Made by a program: the position numbers and the translations under genes. Positions 2,308 through 9,828 of a stretch of DNA of 64,000 nucleotides are shown piece after piece. Under the pieces are notes generated by a model. That model had not been told where the DNA came from and made no database searches. It was given only the letters and a program-made list of their open reading frames with translations. This DNA is from Candidatus Bathyarchaeia archaeon. GTDB lineage: Archaea; Thermoproteota; Bathyarchaeia; Bathyarchaeales; Bathycorpusculaceae. Numbering within the stretch: position 1 is the first letter of the stretch; every line of letters starts with the position of its first letter. The stretch spans positions 20,674-84,673 of the forward strand of contig JAVYUU010000004.1 of the NCBI GenBank assembly GCA_038728085.1, in the 5' to 3' direction.

Positions 2308-2868
2308 TCATTTCGACAAAAGTAGGTCTATTAACGCCTTTTGGTCTACCTCCGCCCTTGTCCGCCAGTCCAAGTATAGCTGTTGATTCTCATCTTGGGA
2401 TATATAGCCATACCTTATATAGCGGTCAATGTTTAGGCTTGTCTTCCAACCAGGAAGTTTTTCGCGTAGAAGCTCTTCCACCTCTCTACGGGGCGCCTTG
2501 CCTTTCTTCGATATTATGTAGGCTATTGTTATGGCTAGCCCCGCTAGATCGTCTATTCGCCACCCAATCATCTTAGCCTCTTTTGGCGTTAATTCCCCGC
2601 GAAGGGTTATGTAGAATCTCGCCCTGTCCAGCTCTTCAAGCGTCGGCTTCTCAGACTGCGGCTTTTCACCCTCTTCAAAGACTGTTTTAACTTGGAGGTC
2701 TAGGGGTTTCAAGTATTCGTCTAATATGCTCAGCACTTTCGGGTAATCTGCGCCTAGGGCTTTGCGGAGCTCCCACCCCTTCACTCCAGGCTTTGCATGT
2801 CTACGGTAAAAGAGCATGTGAACAGCGCGTTTGATTTTGCTAGCATAGACGGCTTTCCGCTTGCTCAT
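2308..2868 (-). CDS. ScpB/KITE-like tandem winged-helix protein (third gene of SMC-like operon)
   Basis: LAGLAITIAYIISKKGKAPRREVEELL resembles the ScpB second winged-helix motif (LAIIAYKQPITRAEIEEIRG). A first winged-helix-like segment is GVKGWELRKALGADYPKVLSILDEYLKPLDLQV. The start overlaps the upstream stop by 4 nt. Confidence 0.65.
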   Translation of the reverse strand: MSKRKAVYASKIKRAVHMLFYRRHAKPGVKGWELRKALGADYPKVLSILDEYLKPLDLQVKTVFEEGEKPQSEKPTLEELDRARFYITLRGELTPKEAKMIGWRIDDLAGLAITIAYIISKKGKAPRREVEELLREKLPGWKTSLNIDRYIRYGYISQDENQQLYLDWRTRAEVDQKALIDLLLSK

Positions 2869-3695
2869 TGGGCTTTAACGCTCCTTCTCCATTTCTCCCA
2901 CTCCTCACGGGTTATGGCTATCGGCAGCGAAACCATCTGTTTTTTGGCTGTTCGCCTCTGCTGTCTCTCGAAAGGCTTAATGAATATCTCCTCCTCTAAG
3001 GGGTGAACTTCAAGGGTTGCATATCCATAAGTGACGAGGAAACTAGTCAAAAAGGCTCTATAAACGGTCTCCTCGTAGGTTTCCGCCCCAACAAAATCCC
3101 AATACCTAATTTTGCCATTTTCGCCTCTTTCCGCCACAAGCCTCTTCAACTCGCTCCAAAAGTTCTCTAACTCCTCCGTGAAAGCCTTATCCCGCAAGAT
3201 TTTAAGCCTTAAAAGCTCCTCGCGGGAGGCAACGCCGCCAGCCTCTTCAAGCGGCGGAAACTCTTTCCACCTATCCTTTAAGGGTGGAAGGTTTTCCCAG
3301 TAAAGCAGTGCCTCCTTCAGGCTGTAGAGGGAGATTTGTTCAAGTTCAACTATTGGGTGCCAAGCTCCGAGAAAAGCGTCCACTATGGCTTCTTTATCAA
3401 GGTTCTTTATCTTCTCCTCTAAGAGAAATGGATCTGTATAGAGGGATGTGGAGCGATGCTTAACCCATTCGCTCTGAAGCTTTATAACTGAGGCGAGGCG
3501 GTTTATTGCCTCAGCATCCAAACACAGATCTTCAGGCTGCTCCCAGTCTGGGAAAAACTCCCTCACAACCCTAATGATCTCGTCCACATCTACCAGGAAG
3601 GGGTCAAGACCGCGCTCCTCAACAGCTTTACACATCTCAATTATCCTTTGAAGTCTCTCCCGCCCAACTTTGACGCGTTCCTTCTTCGACTGCAT
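2865..3695 (-). CDS. ScpA-like kleisin (second gene of SMC-like operon)
   Basis: The N-terminal GLDPFLVDVDEIIRVV and the C-terminal winged helix ETVYRAFLTSFLVTYGYATLEVHPLEEEIFIKP resemble ScpA N- and C-terminal domains. The start shares 1 nt with the SMC-like stop (TAATG). Confidence 0.65.
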   Translation of the reverse strand: MQSKKERVKVGRERLQRIIEMCKAVEERGLDPFLVDVDEIIRVVREFFPDWEQPEDLCLDAEAINRLASVIKLQSEWVKHRSTSLYTDPFLLEEKIKNLDKEAIVDAFLGAWHPIVELEQISLYSLKEALLYWENLPPLKDRWKEFPPLEEAGGVASREELLRLKILRDKAFTEELENFWSELKRLVAERGENGKIRYWDFVGAETYEETVYRAFLTSFLVTYGYATLEVHPLEEEIFIKPFERQQRRTAKKQMVSLPIAITREEWEKWRRSVKAQ

Positions 3696-5614
3696 TAGGC
3701 AACCTCTTTAACTATGGATTTTCCCTCAACATTCTGGACTGTGATAACGTGAATGGCATCCTCTGCGAAAGTGATTTGGCTTGGAGTTATAATCACATAC
3801 TGGGCATCTGAACTCTTAACCGTTGAAATCAGCATCTGCGCTATCAACTCGCGGTTTTTCGGATCCATGTGGACGTCAAACTCATCAACAGCGCGGAAAG
3901 GTGAGCGCACATGTTGCTGCAAAGCCAACAAGAAACTCATGGTGGCTGTTGTCCTTTCGCCTCCGCTCTGGGTGTAAGCGTTAAGCGGCACCGGTTTACC
4001 GCCCTTAAAGCCTACAAGAATCTCAAGTCCAGCCGCCTCGATGTCATGCTCATTTACAAGCCTAACTTCGCCGACAGCTTGAACCTGCGCCAAAATCCTC
4101 TGATACTCCAGATTTACACGATCTAGAAGGCTCTGGATCACCGTCCGCCAAGCCTGCATTCGCGTCTTAACCTCTTCCAATGCTTTCTCCCGGTTTTCAG
4201 CCACAAGCCGCGCCTTTTCCTTAAGCTCAAGGTAAAGCTGCGAGTATGACTCATACATGCGCTCGACATCCTCCGAGACACTCGCCAAAGCGGCTAAGTG
4301 CCCATCAGTTATGCGGATTTCATTTAGGATTTCGCCGGCGCTTTTTATGACGGCTATCCTTGGACCTGTTTCCTCAGCCCTCTTAATGGCATTGTTAAGC
4401 TGAAACCTTGCATCTTTAAGTGCCGCCTTCAACTCTTCAATGTTCGCCTTTGCGTTTTCCATTCTGTAATTTAGCAGTGCAAGTTTAACCCGTGTATCTA
4501 TGATTTGACTTCTAGCCTTCTCTATTTGCTCTTCAAGAATCTGGGTTTCCAATAATTTCCTGTTCAATTCCTCGTCCAGCTTGGAAACTTTTAGCCTCGA
4601 ATTTTCCATAAGCTCTTTTAGGCTTTCAGTTCTCAAAAGTTTCAAGGGTTTACCGCTGATAGCCTCGTTCTCTATGAGGGCTGCTTCAGCCACAAGCTGT
4701 TCACAAAGCGAGAGTGCAGCTTGGCTTCCGGCCTTCTCCCGTTCTAGGCTTATCACGCTTTCCAGATTTTTCTTCCATTCACTTTTCAACTTTTCAATCT
4801 GGTTTTGCTGAATTTGAAGTTGCTCCTCAGCTGTTTTGGCTTCTGTCTCGATTTGTCTTAACAACGCCAACTCTTTTTCACGTTTGGCTTCCAACTCTTC
4901 TACGATGGCTTCACGGCGGTTCACTTCAGCCCATGCAAGCTCCCGCTCTAGAAAGCGTCTTTTCGCCATCAGCTGCTTCTTTTCTTGGAATCTCTCGTAT
5001 TGCTCCCGCCAGTAGTTGAGCGTTTGCTCCGCCGACTCCAAAAGCTTGTTTATAGACTCTTCTTGGCTCAGTATACAGGTAAGCTTCCTCTGGGCTTCAA
5101 GCACGTTTTCACGGTAAGCCTCAAGCCCAACCGCTGCCTCCACCATGCGGAGCTTTTCCTGAGGCGAAAGAATCGTGAACTGCTCCACCATGTTCTGGTG
5201 CATGATAATCAACATGTTGTCGGGGTCAACGCCAAGCTTAGCCAGAAGCCTCTCTACATCCTGCTTTGAAGCCGCCCGGTTTTCAAGCTCAAACCAATAC
5301 TTGCCATCCCGCCTCAAAACCCGAGTCAGAAAAATCTGGTCCTTGTTAAACTTTGGAACTGGACGTTTACCGCCCCGCCTAGAATTATCCAGTATAAGCG
5401 TCACACGTGCCTGATCCTTACCCCAACGGATCAAGTCGCTAAGCTTTCTAGAGCGCTCCGTGTAGGATTGGCCCAGAGCCACAGAAATAGCCAGTAAAAG
5501 CGAGGACTTTCCAGCGCCATTGGGGCCACAGACAACGTTTACGCCGGGTTTAAAGGGTACTCTAGCATATTCGTAGCTCATGAAATTTTCGAGGATCACC
5601 TCGCTGATGAGCAC
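3695..5614 (-). CDS. SMC-family ABC ATPase, half-size (639 aa), short coiled coil, no recognisable hinge or zinc hook
   Basis: Walker A is GPNGAGKSS, the signature motif is QSGGERT, and the Walker B/D-loop is AVDEFDVHMD. About 330 aa of Glu/Lys/Leu heptad-rich sequence lies between the head halves. Confidence 0.85.
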   Translation of the reverse strand: MLISEVILENFMSYEYARVPFKPGVNVVCGPNGAGKSSLLLAISVALGQSYTERSRKLSDLIRWGKDQARVTLILDNSRRGGKRPVPKFNKDQIFLTRVLRRDGKYWFELENRAASKQDVERLLAKLGVDPDNMLIIMHQNMVEQFTILSPQEKLRMVEAAVGLEAYRENVLEAQRKLTCILSQEESINKLLESAEQTLNYWREQYERFQEKKQLMAKRRFLERELAWAEVNRREAIVEELEAKREKELALLRQIETEAKTAEEQLQIQQNQIEKLKSEWKKNLESVISLEREKAGSQAALSLCEQLVAEAALIENEAISGKPLKLLRTESLKELMENSRLKVSKLDEELNRKLLETQILEEQIEKARSQIIDTRVKLALLNYRMENAKANIEELKAALKDARFQLNNAIKRAEETGPRIAVIKSAGEILNEIRITDGHLAALASVSEDVERMYESYSQLYLELKEKARLVAENREKALEEVKTRMQAWRTVIQSLLDRVNLEYQRILAQVQAVGEVRLVNEHDIEAAGLEILVGFKGGKPVPLNAYTQSGGERTTATMSFLLALQQHVRSPFRAVDEFDVHMDPKNRELIAQMLISTVKSSDAQYVIITPSQITFAEDAIHVITVQNVEGKSIVKEVA

Positions 5615-5770
5615 CAGATTTGCCTCTTCTCTTTCCTACTGCAGTATAGAAAGAGGTTAAAAACTCTTATTAAAGCAATTAGGCGCCTAGAAGCATGAAA
5701 AAGAAAGGGAGAAAGGGAAGAAAACGGCTGAAGTTGCCTAAGATAATGTGTTGGAGAAAAGATTGTGAAT

Positions 5771-6847
5771 TTACCGCAGTTTTATTGGTCCTATGCGTTT
5801 TTCGCTTCGTCTTAAGAACGCGCTTTCCACGCCGGTTACAACGGCCATGACGGAGACGCTTCCATGCATTTCCTTGTCAACTCTTGCACCCCAAATCACC
5901 TTTGCCTTCGGTGGCAGCGAGCGCTTCACGATTTCAGCTGCATGGTTAACCTCGAAAAGAGTTAAGTCTTCGCCGCCGGAAACATGTATGAGCAAACCGC
6001 GGGCCTTAGTCACGTCCTCTATGTCCAGGAGGCGTCCATTTATCGCCTTTTCAACAGCCTGCTCCACTTGGCGGTGCAGGATCAAACATAATAACGTGGA
6101 TCAAGGAAAAGGGGATTGTCGGAGCAAAACTTGTGGCGGTTAACACCGACGCCAACCACCTTAGAATAACGAAGGCTGACAGGAGAATTTTGATAGGTGC
6201 AAACCTCACGAAGGGCTTGGGCTGCGGCGGCTACCCAGAGCTTGGAGCGAGAGCCCTCCTTGAAAGCGCCGACAAGGTAATCCAAGAAATAGCCGACGCC
6301 AACATAATATTCCTAGTTGCCGGGTTGGGCGGCGGGACAGGAACAGGTGCAATAACAGCCCTATCAGAGGAGTTGCGCAGAAGATTTGCAGAGTCGCCGG
6401 TTCCACGCCTTGTCATTGGGGTGGTTACCCTCCCCTTTGAGGTTGAAACCGCTAGGATGGAGATAGCCAAGAAGGGATTGGATCGGCTGAAGAAGTCATG
6501 CGATACAGTCGTTGTGATCGACAACAATAGGCTTGTTAAGATTGCCGGAAACCTGCCGTTTAAGGAGGCCTTAGGTGTTGCAAACACGACTATTGGAAAA
6601 TTCATTAAAGGCATAACAGAGACCATTACCACGGCAAGCCTAATCAACCTAGACTATGCAGACCTAAGAGCCATAATGCAAGGCGCGGGCCTCGCCTCGA
6701 TAGGCGTCGGCGAGGGCACGGGAGAAGGTCGAGGCCTACAGCCATTATCGATGGTTGGGCGAGTCTTGCAAACTGTTCGATTTCTTCCTCTTTTACGTAG
6801 GTGGAGGATGGTACTTCGGAGGGGGTGACTGTTAGCTCGGCTTTCAC
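5771..6847 (-). pseudogene. ftsZ: cell division GTPase FtsZ, disrupted by internal inversion of 6067..6733
   Basis: The N-terminus (MKAELTV...QPSIMAVG) is on the minus strand at 6847..6734. The core (LGGAGSN...GGGTGTG...NLDYADLRAIM...GEGR) is on the plus strand at 6067..6733. The C-terminal domain (VEQAVEKAINGRLLD...GGEDLTLFEV...) is on the minus strand at 6066..5771. The piece lengths 114+667+296 sum to 1077 nt, which is in frame after re-inversion. Confidence 0.9.
6067..6733 (+). other. inverted segment carrying FtsZ codons ~39-260
   Basis: The plus-strand frame reads ...LGGAGSNIITWIKEKGIVGAKLVAVNTDANHL...GVGEGTGEGR. FtsZ homology stops abruptly at both ends. Only a 2-bp complementary microhomology (CT..AG) lies at the breakpoints, so the boundary is ambiguous between 6067-6069 and 6731-6733. 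Confidence 0.85.
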
Positions 6848-6984
6848 AAGGGTTCACCTCTGTCTGTATTAAAGTGCGACGCACAAACTAATAAATATTA
6901 CGTCTTACGAATCACGATATATCCTATTTTCCAGAATACCCCTTATAAGACTCAACACCATCATCAAGCCAACGGTGGCAAAAC

Positions 6985-7311
6985 ATGAACAAACTTGAAT
7001 TAATGAAAAAATTCATGTACACGTTTGTTGGAAACGGCCTTCACTTAATAATAAGGGAACAGGACAATAGCTATCTAATACACACGATAGAGATCATGCA
7101 GAAGACGGATGAAACATGTATCGTGAAGGAGATCCCTGTTGGCGACTACTTCCTCCACATGGTTGCTGTTGACAAAAACGGTGAGGAAGCCTCAATAATA
7201 TGCAATTGGAGCCCCGAGCTCCTGCAAAGCCTTCTAGAAAGCTCTGAAATAGCCAGGGAGGCGGGATGCTCAAGCATCATAGTGTTCAAGGATCCATTGA
7301 CCAACAATTAG
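6985..7311 (+). CDS. hypothetical protein
   Basis: This is a 108-aa ORF divergent from ftsZ with no recognised motif. Confidence 0.45.
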   Translation: MNKLELMKKFMYTFVGNGLHLIIREQDNSYLIHTIEIMQKTDETCIVKEIPVGDYFLHMVAVDKNGEEASIICNWSPELLQSLLESSEIAREAGCSSIIVFKDPLTNN

Positions 7312-8754: not shown

Positions 8755-9828
8755 ATGCCAATAATTGAGCGTGTTGCATGGGATAATGCTGGGCCAGAGG
8801 ACATTGCATATCGTTTTCCAAAACTCACGCTTAAGTATGGAAGCCAAGTTATTGTGAAGGAAAATCAGTGGGCAGTCTTCTTCCGAGACGGAAAAGCCTA
8901 CGACGTCCTTGGGCCTGGAAGGCATACCATAACCAGCAGCAATATTCCGCTTTTAACCGGCGCCTTGAAGGCTTTGGGGATCATAGGCGACATCTTTGAC
9001 TGTGAAGTTGTTTTTGTAAGCAACAGTCAGTTCCGGGCGAACTTTGGCGGAAAAGCCTACTCGGCGCCAAGCGGCGACATAAAATATCAGGCGGAGATAG
9101 GCTTTTATGGTTATATGCTTTACAAGGTTGAGGATCCGAAGCTTTTCGTTGTAGAGTTTTTTGGCAACAGGGGTGCAAGCACTTCACGGGACGTGGAAAA
9201 CTACATTAGAGGCTTCATTAACGAGCGAATTATAAGCGAATTTGGACGCCACGACATTTTCGAGATTGTTAAAAATGCGGACGCCACCACTGACAAAGTA
9301 GCCCTAAAAATCAGCGACGAAGCCGCAAGAATAGGCTTAAAAGTGATCGACTGCGTCTTCGAAGGCATAAACATACCTGAGGAGGCTAGACGCTTTGCTT
9401 CGGGACTAGGCACCCAAGCCATGATGATGCAATACATGAAGGAAACCGCAGGCGAACTAAAGGGGGCTGAGGGTGGAGGCGCCGCAGCCGCAGGCTTAGG
9501 CGCAGGTGTGGGCTTAACAATGCCCTTCTTGATGGCACAGCAGCTGCAGCAAGCCCAAGCCCCCCAACAACTAATTGTCTGCCCGAACTGTGGAGCTAAA
9601 AATCCGGCTGGCATGAAATTCTGTGGTCAATGCGGTTCAAGTCTATTGCCGCCGGCGAAGGTTAAATGTCCAAACTGTGGAGCTGAAAATCCGGCTGGCA
9701 TGAAGTTCTGCGGAAACTGCGGCTCGCCACTAACCCAAACTGGCGTAGAAACCACTTGCCCCAAATGCGGTGCAAAGAATCCACCCGGCATGAAGTTCTG
9801 CGGAAACTGTGGAACAAAACTGGGCTAA
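8755..9828 (+). CDS. SPFH/band-7-related protein (YdjI/COG4260-like) with three C-terminal zinc ribbons
   Basis: The N-terminal KYGSQVIVKENQWAVFFRDGKAYDVLGPGRHTITSSNIPLL resembles YdjI-type SPFH proteins. An Ala/Gly/Gln linker follows, then three copies of CPxCGAxNPxGMKFCGxCG. Confidence 0.7.
   Translation: MPIIERVAWDNAGPEDIAYRFPKLTLKYGSQVIVKENQWAVFFRDGKAYDVLGPGRHTITSSNIPLLTGALKALGIIGDIFDCEVVFVSNSQFRANFGGKAYSAPSGDIKYQAEIGFYGYMLYKVEDPKLFVVEFFGNRGASTSRDVENYIRGFINERIISEFGRHDIFEIVKNADATTDKVALKISDEAARIGLKVIDCVFEGINIPEEARRFASGLGTQAMMMQYMKETAGELKGAEGGGAAAAGLGAGVGLTMPFLMAQQLQQAQAPQQLIVCPNCGAKNPAGMKFCGQCGSSLLPPAKVKCPNCGAENPAGMKFCGNCGSPLTQTGVETTCPKCGAKNPPGMKFCGNCGTKLG
9580..9813 (+). repeat. three tandem zinc-ribbon coding repeats (about 57 nt each, spaced 87-90 nt)
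   Basis: The repeats are tgcccgaactgtggagctaaaaatccggctggcatgaaattctgtggtcaatgcggt, tgtccaaactgtggagctgaaaatccggctggcatgaagttctgcggaaactgcggc and tgccccaaatgcggtgcaaagaatccacccggcatgaagttctgcggaaactgtgga. Confidence 0.85.

What the first reader, a model, noticed from the sequence alone, without database searches (positions are those of the whole stretch)
2308..5614. Half-size hinge-less SMC ATPase in one translationally coupled operon with ScpA-like kleisin and ScpB/KITE-like protein
Three co-directional genes are joined by stop/start overlaps (TAATG at 3695, 4-nt overlap at 2865-2868).

Gene 1 (639 aa) has a bona fide SMC-type head: Walker A GPNGAGKSS, signature QSGGERT and Walker B AVDEFDVHMD. 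Only about 330 aa of heptad-rich sequence separates the head halves. I find no ~150-aa hinge domain and no Rad50-type CxxC hook. To my eye several head motifs look closer to Smc5/Smc6 heads than to canonical prokaryotic Smc: ENFMSY, DPDNMLIIMHQNMVEQF and SPFRAVDEFDVHMDPKNR. This is from memory and unverified.

Gene 2 ends in a kleisin-type winged helix (ETVYRAFLTSFLVTYGYATLEVHPLEEEIFIKP). Gene 3 has a ScpB-like WH motif (LAGLAITIAYIISKKGKAPRREVEELL).

Canonical Smc is about 1150-1200 aa, and smc is usually not co-operonic with scpAB. RecN-sized SMCs are not known to use kleisin/KITE partners. The operon lies immediately downstream of ftsZ on the same strand. That position favours chromosome segregation, although an Smc5/6- or Wadjet-like role against extrachromosomal DNA cannot be excluded.
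Basis: partly seen in the sequence, partly recalled or inferred. Interest (0 to 1): 0.75.

Follow-up and report, generated by a model that had tools for sequence, protein, structure and literature searches.

The report
Short hinge-less archaeal Smc5/6-type operon
This Bathyarchaeia operon encodes the archaeal relative of the eukaryotic Smc5/6 chromosome-maintenance complex (ATPase, Nse4-like kleisin, Nse3/MAGE-like kite), a complex already catalogued by comparative genomics, but here in a half-length form whose arms end in a plain loop instead of a hinge, a feature the papers I could search do not discuss.

Summary
Three minus-strand genes overlap stop-to-start: 5614-3695, 3695-2865 and 2868-2308. 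Gene 1 (639 aa) is a true SMC ATPase. Its AlphaFold model (pLDDT 88) has about 150-residue antiparallel arms closed by an 11-residue loop, with no hinge and no CxxC hook. The short length is conserved in over 100 close relatives and about 60 divergent clusters across TACK archaea, so it is not an assembly error.

The labels need correcting. The ATPase groups with eukaryotic Smc5/Smc6 rather than canonical Smc: these are its top solved-structure hits, its next-best hits among 1.84 billion proteins, and it shares their head motifs. Gene 2 matches the Nse4 C-terminal winged helix, not ScpA. Gene 3 is a tandem winged-helix kite closest to Nse3/MAGE and Nse1, not ScpB.

This "SMC5/6-related" operon type was already described in TACK and Asgard archaea (Yoshinaga and Inagaki 2021; van Hooff et al. 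preprint). Neither paper mentions short arms or a missing hinge.

The ftsZ argument fails. The neighbouring ftsZ is split by an in-frame 669-bp inversion, and an 88%-identical relative has no ftsZ there.

Verdict: a new variant of a known kind, of moderate interest.

The parts
3695..5614 (-). Short-armed, hinge-less SMC5/6-related SMC ATPase, 639 aa, GTG start
   Evidence: ORF. Pfam SMC_N E=1.7e-38 spanning aa 3-628, with no SMC_hinge hit. Top solved-structure hits are Smc5 and Smc6. AlphaFold2 model pLDDT 88.3. Foldseek matches SMC heads with coiled coil and joint.
5501..5527 (-). Walker A motif GPNGAGKSS (aa 30-38)
   Evidence: Read directly from the sequence. G30, P31, N32, G33, G35 and K36 are invariant in 50 family members.
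4079..5122 (-). Antiparallel coiled-coil arm (aa 165-512), about 150 residues per strand, with joint-like breaks at aa 417-425 and 443-449
   Evidence: DSSP on the AlphaFold2 model shows helices 165-317, 329-416, 426-442 and 450-510. This region varies in length and cannot be aligned across the family.
4631..4663 (-). Arm apex: an 11-residue loop (aa 318-328) where a hinge or zinc hook would sit
   Evidence: This is the only segment with pLDDT below 50 (aa 319-327). No CxxC is present and no SMC_hinge hit was found.
3950..3970 (-). ABC signature motif QSGGERT (aa 549-555)
   Evidence: Read from the sequence. S550, G551, G552 and E553 are invariant in the family.
3863..3892 (-). Walker B / D-loop AVDEFDVHMD (aa 575-584), of Smc6 type
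   Evidence: Read from the sequence. The motif table shows DEFDVHMD in the family, DEFDVFMD in Smc6, DEINQGMD in Smc5 and DEVEAALD in canonical Smc.
2865..3695 (-). Nse4-like kleisin, 276 aa. Its start overlaps the SMC stop codon (TAATG).
   Evidence: ORF. Nse4_C matches aa 200-273 at E=1.9e-4, which is 22.1 bits against a cut-off of 26. Five of 9 diverse orthologues hit Nse4_C and none hits ScpA or Rad21 families. The profile hits yeast Nse4 at 1.9e-4 and human NSE4/EID3 at 3.7e-3.
2877..3098 (-). Kleisin C-terminal winged-helix domain (aa 200-273), the predicted SMC-cap binder
   Evidence: Extent of the Nse4_C match. It aligns to yeast Nse4 residues 277-342. Cap binding is inferred from what is established for kleisins.
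2308..2868 (-). Nse1/Nse3 (MAGE)-type kite protein, 186 aa, two winged-helix domains. Its ATG overlaps the kleisin stop codon (ATGA).
   Evidence: ORF. The AlphaFold2 model (pLDDT 72.8) shows two winged-helix domains. Foldseek top hits are MAGE-G1/Nse3 at 1.1e-4, Nse1 at 1.3e-4 and MAGE-A4 at 1.3e-4, with no ScpB in the top 50. The profile hits human NSE3 at 0.0097.
5615..5770 (-). Upstream non-coding region, presumed operon promoter (A/T-rich TTTAATAA box about 55 nt before the GTG)
   Evidence: Reading only. This is an inference and was not tested.

Best explanation
The three genes encode the archaeal SMC5/6-related complex. It consists of an SMC ATPase from the Smc5/Smc6 branch, an Nse4-type kleisin and an Nse1/Nse3 (MAGE)-type kite, made from one translationally coupled transcript.

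Inferred mechanism, based on established SMC-kleisin architecture:
- Two copies of the ATPase engage their heads around two ATP molecules.
- One kleisin bridges them asymmetrically. Its N-terminal helices bind the neck of one SMC and its C-terminal winged helix binds the cap of the other.
- A kite dimer sits on the middle of the kleisin.
- Together they clamp DNA on top of the engaged heads, as in the DNA-bound Smc5/6 core.

In this TACK-wide subfamily the arm is only about 150 residues per strand (about 22 nm, against about 49 nm in canonical Smc). The arm ends in a variable loop, so there is no hinge dimerisation and no hinge DNA-binding site. The two SMCs would be held together by the heads and the kleisin. 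A so far unrecognised arm-arm or apex contact is also possible.

Shown here: the gene anatomy, the Smc5/6 affinity, the types of the partners, the absence of a hinge and the conservation of the operon. Inferred: the stoichiometry, DNA clamping and the cellular role. The likely role is chromosome maintenance or repair alongside a canonical Smc-ScpAB complex.
For: Smc5/6 affinity of the ATPase:
- The single sequence against solved structures gives yeast Smc5 at 8.8e-34, human Smc5 at 5.6e-30 and human Smc6 at 3.3e-27.
- A 50-sequence family profile puts Smc6 and Smc5 in all top-10 places (271-244 bits). The best canonical Smc scores 226 bits and Rad50 scores 66 bits.
- In a search of 1.84 billion representative proteins, the first hits outside the archaeal family are about 1000-1130-aa proteins. 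Of the ten I looked up, six are named Smc5 or Smc6 by their sources, two others come from eukaryotes without a family name, and two carry no name or source organism.
- The family shares these motifs with Smc5/6 and not with canonical Smc: NFMSY, GKSS, DN..Q, DEFDVHMDPxNR and QYxxITP.
- A rough neighbour-joining tree of the heads groups the family with Smc5/6 against canonical Smc, with 69% bootstrap.

Kleisin: Nse4_C hits in 5 of 9 diverse orthologues, and Nse4 chains are the top real solved-structure hits.

Kite: a tandem winged-helix model with Nse3/MAGE and Nse1 as top Foldseek hits. NSE3 is also the top profile hit.

Operon conservation: the SMC-kleisin-kite order with overlapping genes is found in loci L002, L003, L004 and L084-L088. 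These come from Bathyarchaeia, Thermofilales, a 'Thaumarchaeota' MAG, an Asgard genome and several metagenome or MAG contigs with no taxon name.

No hinge.

Literature: SMC5/6-related archaeal SMC in TACK archaea including Bathyarchaeota (PMC8665677). Operons of SMC5/6-related SMC, Nse4-related kleisin and Nse1/3-related kite, with Bathyarchaeia rows in Table S3 (10.1101/2024.01.07.573240).
Against: - The kleisin match is below Pfam's gathering score (22 bits against 26). Its N-terminal domain has only a weak ScpA-N match (E=0.074).
- The kite evidence rests on a moderate-confidence model (pLDDT 72.8), low TM-scores (0.33-0.43) and profile E-values near 0.01.
- My tree is a rough neighbour-joining tree with no Rad50 outgroup and only 69% support.
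- No physical interaction, stoichiometry or DNA binding was tested, and no multimer model could be run.
- How a hinge-less SMC dimerises is unknown, because the apex is not conserved in sequence.
- I did not show that this genome also carries a canonical smc. None lies in the 64-kb window.
Confidence: 0.8

Rival explanations
1. It is a shortened version of the canonical prokaryotic Smc-ScpA-ScpB condensin, as the first reader labelled the partners, and it acts in bulk chromosome segregation.
For: - The best NCBIfam model is SMC_prok_A (4e-52).
- The Foldseek top hit is a Pyrococcus Smc head with joint.
- The kleisin N-terminus weakly resembles the ScpA N-domain (E=0.074).
- In one relative (L086) the operon sits directly upstream of a CdvA/Snf7/Vps4 cell-division cluster.
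Against: - SMC_prok_A scores 177 bits against a cut-off of 729.
- Smc5 and Smc6 outrank every canonical Smc.
- The next-best hits in the 1.84-billion-protein library include eukaryotic Smc5/6 and, among the ten I looked up, no prokaryotic Smc.
- No ScpA or ScpB Pfam hit appears in any of 9 orthologues of either partner.
- Most Bathyarchaeia carry a separate ScpB-like kite in addition to the Nse1/3-related one.
- The ftsZ adjacency is not conserved, and that ftsZ is split by an inversion.
Confidence: 0.07
2. It is an SMC-based defence system against plasmids or viruses, of Wadjet/Lamassu type. Alternatively, it is an Smc5/6-like restriction factor for extrachromosomal DNA.
For: - PADLOC models of SMC-like defence ATPases match gene 1: mad3 at 1.3e-33, LmuB at 2.2e-22 and JetC at 1.1e-9.
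- The Wadjet JetABC structure 8as8, chain C, is among the top Foldseek hits for the kite.
- From general knowledge, Lamassu LmuB is also a short-armed SMC-like ATPase, and eukaryotic Smc5/6 restricts viral DNA.
Against: - The PADLOC scores (115, 78 and 35 bits) reflect the shared ATPase head and are lower than the SMC_prok_A score of 177 bits.
- The kleisin and kite hit no PADLOC model.
- No nuclease or effector gene (JetD or LmuA type) flanks the operon in any of the 10 loci examined.
- In the window, L001 and L002 the operon sits in the same conserved core-genome position next to the NusA/L30e/RNA polymerase cluster.
- The short form occurs in at least five named TACK lineages (Bathyarchaeia, Nitrososphaeria, Korarchaeota, Culexmicrobium and Thermofilales), and the three-gene order is kept in every short-form and hinge-bearing locus examined, unlike the patchy distribution typical of defence islands.
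Confidence: 0.08
3. It belongs to one of the known short archaeal or bacterial SMC-like families: ASRP/ClsN/Sph, arcadin-4, Rad50 or RecN.
For: The size (639 aa) is similar to ASRP and RecN. There are weak NCBIfam hits to ASRP (3.8e-18), Rad50 (2.7e-22), Rkd4 (1.4e-13) and RecN (1.9e-9).
Against: - All these hits are far below the curated cut-offs: ASRP 65 against 300, Rad50 79 against 700, Rkd4 50 against 860 and RecN 37 against 408.
- There is no zinc hook, whereas most ASRPs and Rad50 have one.
- There is no Mre11 neighbour.
- None of these families is described with kleisin and kite partners. The papers I searched on ASRP/ClsN do not mention kleisin. For the other families this rests on general knowledge.
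- The published phylogeny separates ASRP from the SMC clade that contains the SMC5/6-related archaeal SMCs.
Confidence: 0.02
4. The short length is an artefact, either an assembly deletion or a pseudogene.
For: None beyond the unusual length. The neighbouring ftsZ does show a structural rearrangement in this lineage.
Against: - More than 100 near relatives of 639-651 aa come from NCBI, JGI, ENA and Logan assemblies.
- About 60 divergent clusters of 548-685 aa exist.
- The coiled-coil model is continuous and high in confidence.
- All ATPase motifs are intact.
Confidence: 0.01

Closest known systems
Archaeal SMC5/6-related complex (the 'SMC5/6-related aSMC' of Yoshinaga and Inagaki 2021; the operon of SMC5/6-related SMC, Nse4-related kleisin and Nse1/3-related kite of van Hooff et al., bioRxiv 10.1101/2024.01.07.573240)
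   Same: - Same lineage range (TACK and Asgard archaea, with Bathyarchaeia listed explicitly).
- Same three-gene order.
- Same affinities: SMC to Smc5/6, kleisin to Nse4, kite to Nse1/Nse3.
- A single SMC gene, which implies a homodimer.

The window operon is a member of this group.
   Different: Those papers do not describe arm length or the hinge. A text search finds 'hinge' only in their introductions, figure legends or reference lists, and the coiled coils were removed before tree building.

Here the SMC is half-length and has a loop apex. Relatives in the same family keep a hinge (P0300 at 982 aa; Freyarchaeum P0332 at 835 aa with a Pfam SMC_hinge hit) or carry a central CxxC motif (P0254, P0262 and P0270).
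Eukaryotic Smc5/6-Nse1-Nse3-Nse4 core
   Same: - It is the closest head sequence among solved structures, with shared head motifs.
- The kleisin C-terminal winged helix is Nse4-like.
- The kite fold is closest to Nse3/MAGE and Nse1.
- DNA clamping by the heads, kleisin and kites is the likely shared mechanism.
   Different: - One SMC gene rather than an Smc5/Smc6 heterodimer.
- One kite gene rather than Nse1 plus Nse3, and the 186-aa kite is too short to hold an Nse1-type RING after its two winged-helix domains.
- No Nse2, Nse5 or Nse6 in the operon.
- Arms less than half as long, and no hinge.
Canonical prokaryotic Smc-ScpA-ScpB
   Same: An SMC head with joint, a kleisin plus a kite dimer, and an operon organisation that is common in archaea.
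   Different: Canonical Smc is about 1150-1200 aa with a hinge (PF06470). Gene 1 scores 177 bits against the 729-bit cut-off of TIGR02169. No ScpA or ScpB family hits were found. The head motifs differ (GFKSF, GKSN, DEVEAALD and QFIVITH in canonical Smc).
'Hinge-less' SMC variants of marine Actinobacteria (PMC12153180)
   Same: [quoted passage not shown] They were reported in 2025 as a new kind of SMC biology.
   Different: They form a bacterial clade inside canonical Smc, with no reported kleisin or kite partners and no Smc5/6 affinity. They represent an independent hinge loss.
ASRP / ClsN / Sph, and Rad50
   Same: Short or medium SMC-superfamily ATPases of archaea that lack a hinge.
   Different: They dimerise through a zinc hook, whereas the window protein has none. 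None is described with kleisin or kite partners. The NCBIfam scores are far below the cut-offs.

Membership tests
Archaeal SMC5/6-related complex | The SMC subunit groups with eukaryotic Smc5/Smc6 rather than with canonical Smc or Smc1-4 | tested here: met
   The top 10 solved-structure hits of the family profile are all Smc6 or Smc5 (271-244 bits, against 226 for the best canonical Smc). The next-best hits in 1.84 billion proteins include eukaryotic Smc5/6. Motifs are shared with Smc5/6. A rough neighbour-joining tree supports the split at 69%. No rigorous rooted maximum-likelihood tree was run.
Archaeal SMC5/6-related complex | An adjacent Nse4-related kleisin | tested here: met
   Nse4_C at E=1.9e-4 for the window protein, which is below the gathering score. 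Five of 9 orthologues hit Nse4_C and none hits ScpA or Rad21 families. The profile hits yeast Nse4 at 1.9e-4 and human NSE4/EID3 at 3.7e-3, ahead of ScpA. The match is significant but modest.
Archaeal SMC5/6-related complex | An adjacent Nse1/Nse3-related kite with tandem winged helices | tested here: met
   The AlphaFold2 model has two winged-helix domains. Foldseek top hits are Nse3/MAGE-G1, Nse1 and MAGE-A4 at about 1e-4. Profile top hits are NSE3 and MAGE-G1 at 0.01-0.02. The model confidence is moderate.
Archaeal SMC5/6-related complex | Found in TACK or Asgard archaea as a three-gene cluster | tested here: met
   The source organism is Bathyarchaeia. The cluster is conserved in 8 further loci, including an Asgard genome. 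It matches the Bathyarchaeia rows of Table S3.
SMC proteins in the strict sense | An ABC-type head split by a long antiparallel coiled coil | tested here: met
   Pfam SMC_N spans aa 3-628. Supported by the AlphaFold2 model and by Foldseek matches to SMC heads.
SMC proteins in the strict sense | A globular hinge dimerisation domain at the arm apex | tested here: not met
   No PF06470 hit. The apex is an 11-residue loop in a model of pLDDT 88. The region varies in length and sequence across the family.
Canonical Smc-ScpAB | Passes the NCBIfam SMC equivalog models, and its partners belong to the ScpA and ScpB families | tested here: not met
   TIGR02169 scores 177 bits against 729, and TIGR02168 scores 145 against 567. 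No ScpA or ScpB Pfam hits were found in 9 plus 9 orthologues.
Eukaryotic Smc5/6 holocomplex | An Smc5-Smc6 heterodimer, Nse1 (with RING) plus Nse3, and Nse2 on the arm | tested here: not met
   The operon has a single SMC gene and a single 186-aa kite, which is too short to hold a RING after its two winged-helix domains. It has no further genes. The rest of the genome was not searched for Nse2.
ASRP / ClsN / Sph | Passes NCBIfam NF045487 and has a zinc-hook motif at the apex | tested here: not met
   65 bits against a cut-off of 300. No CxxC is present.
Rad50 / SbcC | A CxxC zinc hook, an Mre11/SbcD partner and a pass on the family model cut-off | tested here: not met
   The best Rad50 model scores 79 bits against 700. 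No CxxC is present. The neighbours are a kleisin and a kite, not Mre11.
RecN | Passes TIGR00634 | tested here: not met
   37 bits against a cut-off of 408.
Wadjet / Lamassu defence systems | JetA/B/C/D or LmuA/B/C gene sets, including a nuclease or effector | tested here: not met
   Only generic ATPase-level PADLOC hits for gene 1, and no hits for genes 2 and 3. No effector gene flanks the operon in any of the 10 loci.
SMC-kleisin complexes in general | The kleisin N-domain binds the SMC neck, the C-terminal winged helix binds the cap, and the kite dimer binds the kleisin | not testable with these tools
   No multimer prediction or experiment was available. The only support is the conserved operon and the domain homology.

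The most novel reading that the evidence does not exclude
Across TACK archaea, the Smc5/6-type complex normally works without a hinge and with arms of about 15-25 nm. That would make it a natural 'minimal' SMC-kleisin-kite machine in which head-proximal DNA clamping is sufficient.

Within this one family the arm apex has been remodelled repeatedly. The deeper-branching members, including an Asgard one, keep a hinge. Most TACK members have lost it. One Bathyarchaeia subclade has re-lengthened the arms and gained a Rad50-like CxxCG(S)xL hook, and in the one locus examined that gene stands alone without kleisin and kite neighbours.

The literature I could search reports neither point.
Probability: 0.45. 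Interest if true: 0.7.

Novelty: new variant of a known kind. Interest (0 to 1): 0.5.

Why it matters
Current SMC models (loop extrusion, DNA segment capture, topological entrapment) give the hinge and the long arms essential roles.

A widespread, conserved SMC-kleisin-kite complex that naturally lacks a hinge and has arms less than half the usual length would be a compact system for asking what the head, kleisin and kite module can do alone. It would also suit structural work. Because it belongs to the branch that gave rise to eukaryotic Smc5/6, it bears on what the ancestral Smc5/6 machine looked like and did.

If the hinge-less state is already known to specialists, the finding is simply one more member of a catalogued archaeal complex.

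Tried and rejected
- **Genome scan.** The GTDB genome scan with the family alignment was swamped by the generic Walker A pattern. It returned mostly canonical bacterial Smc, and only L003 and L004 were useful. As a result I could not test whether a canonical smc or the CxxC paralogue co-occurs in the same genome.
- **Kite searches.** Two protein searches for the kite listed only relatives at 74% identity or more. Diverse kites and kleisins had to be taken from fetched loci instead.
- **Kite structure.** The kite model therefore rests on a shallow alignment and is only moderately confident.
- **Tree.** A first bootstrap tree script timed out. It was replaced by a faster neighbour-joining run with Kimura distances, which is rough and has no Rad50 outgroup.
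- **Solved structures, single sequences.** Searches with the kleisin and kite gave nothing useful.
- **Spurious hit.** The top hit of the kleisin profile, a designed CTPR repeat protein, is a low-scoring repeat artefact and was discarded.
- **Inversion borders.** I looked for inverted repeats at the borders of the ftsZ inversion and found none.
- **Supplements.** Those of Yoshinaga and Inagaki 2021 are not held. I could not check whether their 80 SMC5/6-related sequences include the short forms.
- **Rejected explanations.** ASRP, arcadin-4, Rad50, RecN, Wadjet, Lamassu and an assembly artefact were rejected for the reasons given under the rival explanations.

Full report
**Observation**

The window carries three co-directional minus-strand genes. 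Gene 1 is 5614..3695 (GTG start, 639 aa), gene 2 is 3695..2865 (276 aa) and gene 3 is 2868..2308 (186 aa). They are joined by a 1-nt TAATG overlap and a 4-nt ATGA overlap.

Gene 1 has Walker A GPNGAGKSS, signature QSGGERT and Walker B AVDEFDVHMD. Pfam SMC_N spans residues 3-628 (E=1.7e-38) and there is no SMC_hinge hit. The protein contains no CxxC.

An AlphaFold2 model built on 50 family members is confident (pLDDT 88.3). It shows:
- an N-terminal head lobe at residues 1-164;
- one long helix at 165-317;
- an 11-residue low-confidence loop at 318-328;
- returning helices at 329-416, 426-442 and 450-510, whose breaks resemble the SMC joint;
- a C-terminal head lobe at 513-638.

The arm is therefore about 150 residues per strand, which I estimate at about 22 nm. 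Canonical Smc has an arm of about 49 nm (abstract of PMC5526789). The apex is a plain loop.

**Not an artefact**

The source organism is a Bathyarchaeia archaeon. More than 100 proteins at 84-100% identity, from NCBI, JGI, ENA and Logan assemblies, are 639-651 aa long.

An exhaustive phmmer search of 1.84 billion representative proteins found about 60 clusters at 33-67% identity with lengths of 548-685 aa. Names given by the sources place short forms in Bathyarchaeia, Nitrososphaeria, Candidatus Culexmicrobium, Korarchaeota/Methanodesulfokora, Thermofilales and a 'Thaumarchaeota' MAG.

Across this family the apex region varies in length and cannot be aligned. The distance from Walker A to the signature motif ranges from 429 to 563 residues.

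**What the ATPase is**

Against solved structures, the single sequence hits yeast Smc5 (8.8e-34), human Smc5 and human Smc6, interleaved with Pyrococcus Smc.

A family profile separates them clearly. All ten best chains are Smc6 or Smc5 (271-244 bits). Next come Pyrococcus Smc (226), Smc2 (215), Smc3 (192), Smc1, Smc4 and Rad50 (66).

In the 1.84-billion-protein search, the first hits outside the archaeal family are about 1000-1130-aa proteins at 25-28% identity. Of the ten I looked up, six are named Smc5 or Smc6 by their sources, from an amoebozoan, a tick, a beetle, a fungus and a stick insect. Two more come from eukaryotes without a family name, and two have no name or source organism.

A motif table made here shows NFMSY, GKSS, the DN..Q Q-loop context, DEFDVHMDPxNR and QYxxITP. 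The family shares these with Smc5/6. Canonical Smc instead has GFKSF, GKSN, DEVEAALD and QFIVITH.

A rough neighbour-joining tree of the head domains splits the family plus Smc5/6 from canonical Smc with 69% bootstrap.

No curated family accepts the protein. Scores against cut-offs are: SMC_prok_A 177 against 729, ASRP 65 against 300, Rad50 79 against 700, arcadin-4 50 against 860 and RecN 37 against 408.

**The partners**

Gene 2 matches Pfam Nse4_C at residues 200-273 (E=1.9e-4, just below the gathering score). Among nine diverse orthologues taken from fetched loci, five hit Nse4_C and none hits a ScpA or Rad21 family. A profile of the nine hits yeast Nse4 (1.9e-4) and human NSE4/EID3 (3.7e-3) through the C-terminal winged helix. 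ScpA appears only at E=0.07-0.5.

Gene 3 has no Pfam hit. Its model (pLDDT 72.8) is two winged-helix domains in tandem. The best Foldseek matches are MAGE-G1/Nse3, Nse1, MAGE-A4 and a chain of the Wadjet JetABC structure. MukE is weaker and ScpB is absent from the top 50. The profile's three best solved-structure hits are all NSE3/MAGE.

**Conservation of the operon**

The SMC-kleisin-kite order, usually with overlapping genes, recurs in every short-form and hinge-bearing locus I fetched:
- an 88%-identical Bathyarchaeia relative (L002);
- Thermofilales (L003) and a 'Thaumarchaeota' MAG (L004);
- two further short forms (L086 and L087);
- long relatives of the same family: P0300/P0427 (982 aa), P0326 (928 aa) and the Asgard Candidatus Freyarchaeum P0332 (835 aa, with a Pfam SMC_hinge hit).

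**Comparison with what is known**

Yoshinaga and Inagaki (2021) defined 'SMC5/6-related aSMC' homologues, mostly in TACK archaea and including Bathyarchaeota.

van Hooff et al. (bioRxiv 10.1101/2024.01.07.573240) showed that TACK and Asgard archaea carry two SMC complexes, each encoded as an operon. One comprises an SMC5/6-related SMC, an Nse4-related kleisin and an Nse1/3-related kite. Their Table S3 lists most Bathyarchaeia genomes with an Nse1/3-related kite, in nine of them alongside a neighbouring Nse4-related kleisin. Most also have a separate ScpB-like kite.

What those papers do not mention, in text or supplement searches, is arm length or the hinge. The coiled coils were removed before tree building. 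'Hinge-less' SMCs have been reported as a novelty only for a marine actinobacterial clade with no reported partners (PMC12153180). I found no experimental work on the archaeal complex.

**Likely mechanism**

Shown here: an intact SMC head of Smc5/6 type, a short arm with no hinge or hook, an Nse4-like kleisin, an Nse3/Nse1-like kite and tight co-expression.

Inferred from established SMC-kleisin architecture and from the DNA-bound Smc5/6 core:
- Two SMCs engage their heads on ATP.
- One kleisin bridges the neck of one SMC and the cap of the other.
- A kite dimer binds the kleisin.
- DNA is clamped on the engaged heads.

Without a hinge, the dimer must be held by the heads and the kleisin. Other possibilities are unrecognised arm contacts or an intermolecular antiparallel coiled coil. 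This could not be tested here.

The cellular role is most likely chromosome maintenance or repair alongside canonical Smc-ScpAB. The neighbourhood hints are anecdotal. An Lhr helicase lies next to the operon in L003 and L084. A CdvA/Snf7/Vps4 cluster lies next to it in L086.

A defence role is not excluded but has little support. Only generic PADLOC ATPase hits were found, the partners have no hits, and there is no effector gene. The operon also sits in the same core-genome position beside the NusA/L30e/RNA polymerase cluster in three genomes.

**The ftsZ context**

The GTPase core of the adjacent ftsZ (about 6069-6737) lies on the plus strand. Its first ~38 codons and its C-terminal domain lie on the minus strand.

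Inverting that 669-bp segment in silico restores a 358-aa FtsZ with Tubulin (7.8e-37) and FtsZ_C (2.3e-27) domains. A JGI contig that is 99.7% identical shows the same split. The 88%-identical relative has no ftsZ at this position.

**Evolutionary context**

This part is rough. In the neighbour-joining tree the hinge-bearing long forms branch deepest and the short forms are derived. Three roughly 1020-1047-aa Bathyarchaeia proteins with a central CxxCG(S)xL motif form a 96%-supported clade nested among the short forms. In the one locus examined, that long form stands alone without kleisin and kite genes (L083). This suggests hinge loss followed by gain of a hook, but it needs a proper phylogeny.

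**Verdict**

This is a new variant (short-armed and hinge-less) of a known kind (the archaeal SMC5/6-related SMC-kleisin-kite complex). Interest is moderate at 0.5. It would be higher if the hinge-less state proves to be unreported and functional.

Noticed in passing
window 5771-6847 (inverted segment about 6069-6737): The ftsZ next to the operon is interrupted by a precise in-frame 669-bp inversion of its GTPase core. The N-terminal ~38 codons and the FtsZ_C domain read on the minus strand, while the Tubulin domain reads on the plus strand. Un-inverting the segment restores a 358-aa FtsZ with Tubulin (7.8e-37) and FtsZ_C (2.3e-27) domains. No inverted repeats lie at the borders. The same arrangement is present in a 99.7%-identical JGI contig (L001).
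   Followed up: partly
window 5771-7311, compared with L002 8632-10000: The ftsZ and the adjacent 108-aa ORF (6985-7311, no family hit) are absent from the corresponding position in an 88%-identical relative. That relative has only a 41-aa ORF between the upstream gene and the SMC gene. The segment therefore looks like a lineage-specific insertion of a now-disrupted ftsZ copy.
   Followed up: partly
P0254, P0262 and P0270 (Bathyarchaeia; locus L083 5001-8087): Paralogues in the same family at 40-42% identity are 1016-1047 aa long. They carry a central CDKCGS(L/I)L or CERCGSTL motif at about residue 522-545, resembling the Rad50/SbcC zinc hook. They form a 96%-supported clade nested among the short forms in a rough tree. 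In the one locus examined, the gene stands alone without kleisin or kite genes.
   Followed up: partly
L086 4930-7329: In a 46%-identical Bathyarchaeia-type relative, the SMC-kleisin-kite operon is followed on the same strand by genes for Snf7 (weak hit), CdvA, a protein with no family hit and an AAA ATPase. I read these as an ESCRT-type Cdv cell-division cluster ending in a Vps4-like ATPase.
   Followed up: no
L003 3951-6788 and L084 7340-8703: A large Lhr-type DEAD-box helicase gene lies next to the operon in two distant relatives: Thermofilales (where I identified it from the ORF translation alone) and the 982-aa hinge-bearing form (where Pfam hits support it). This may hint at a DNA-repair link.
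   Followed up: no
L088 6784-7938: The kleisin of the 928-aa relative (GCA_037917675.1) is 384 aa long. It has an extra N-terminal MarR-type winged helix-turn-helix domain (MarR_2 at 2.5e-7), a possible built-in DNA-binding module.
   Followed up: no
window 8755-9828: A 357-aa Band_7/SPFH-domain protein ends in three repeated CPxCGAxNPxGMKFCGxCG zinc-ribbon units. It is conserved in L001 and L002.
   Followed up: no
L022 and L057 (bacterial loci): Two bacterial SMC-like ORFs, of 776 aa (Actinomycetota MAG) and 825 aa (an unclassified bacterium), group with canonical Smc in the head tree and are much shorter than the usual ~1180 aa. They may be related to the published hinge-less actinobacterial SMCs.
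   Followed up: no
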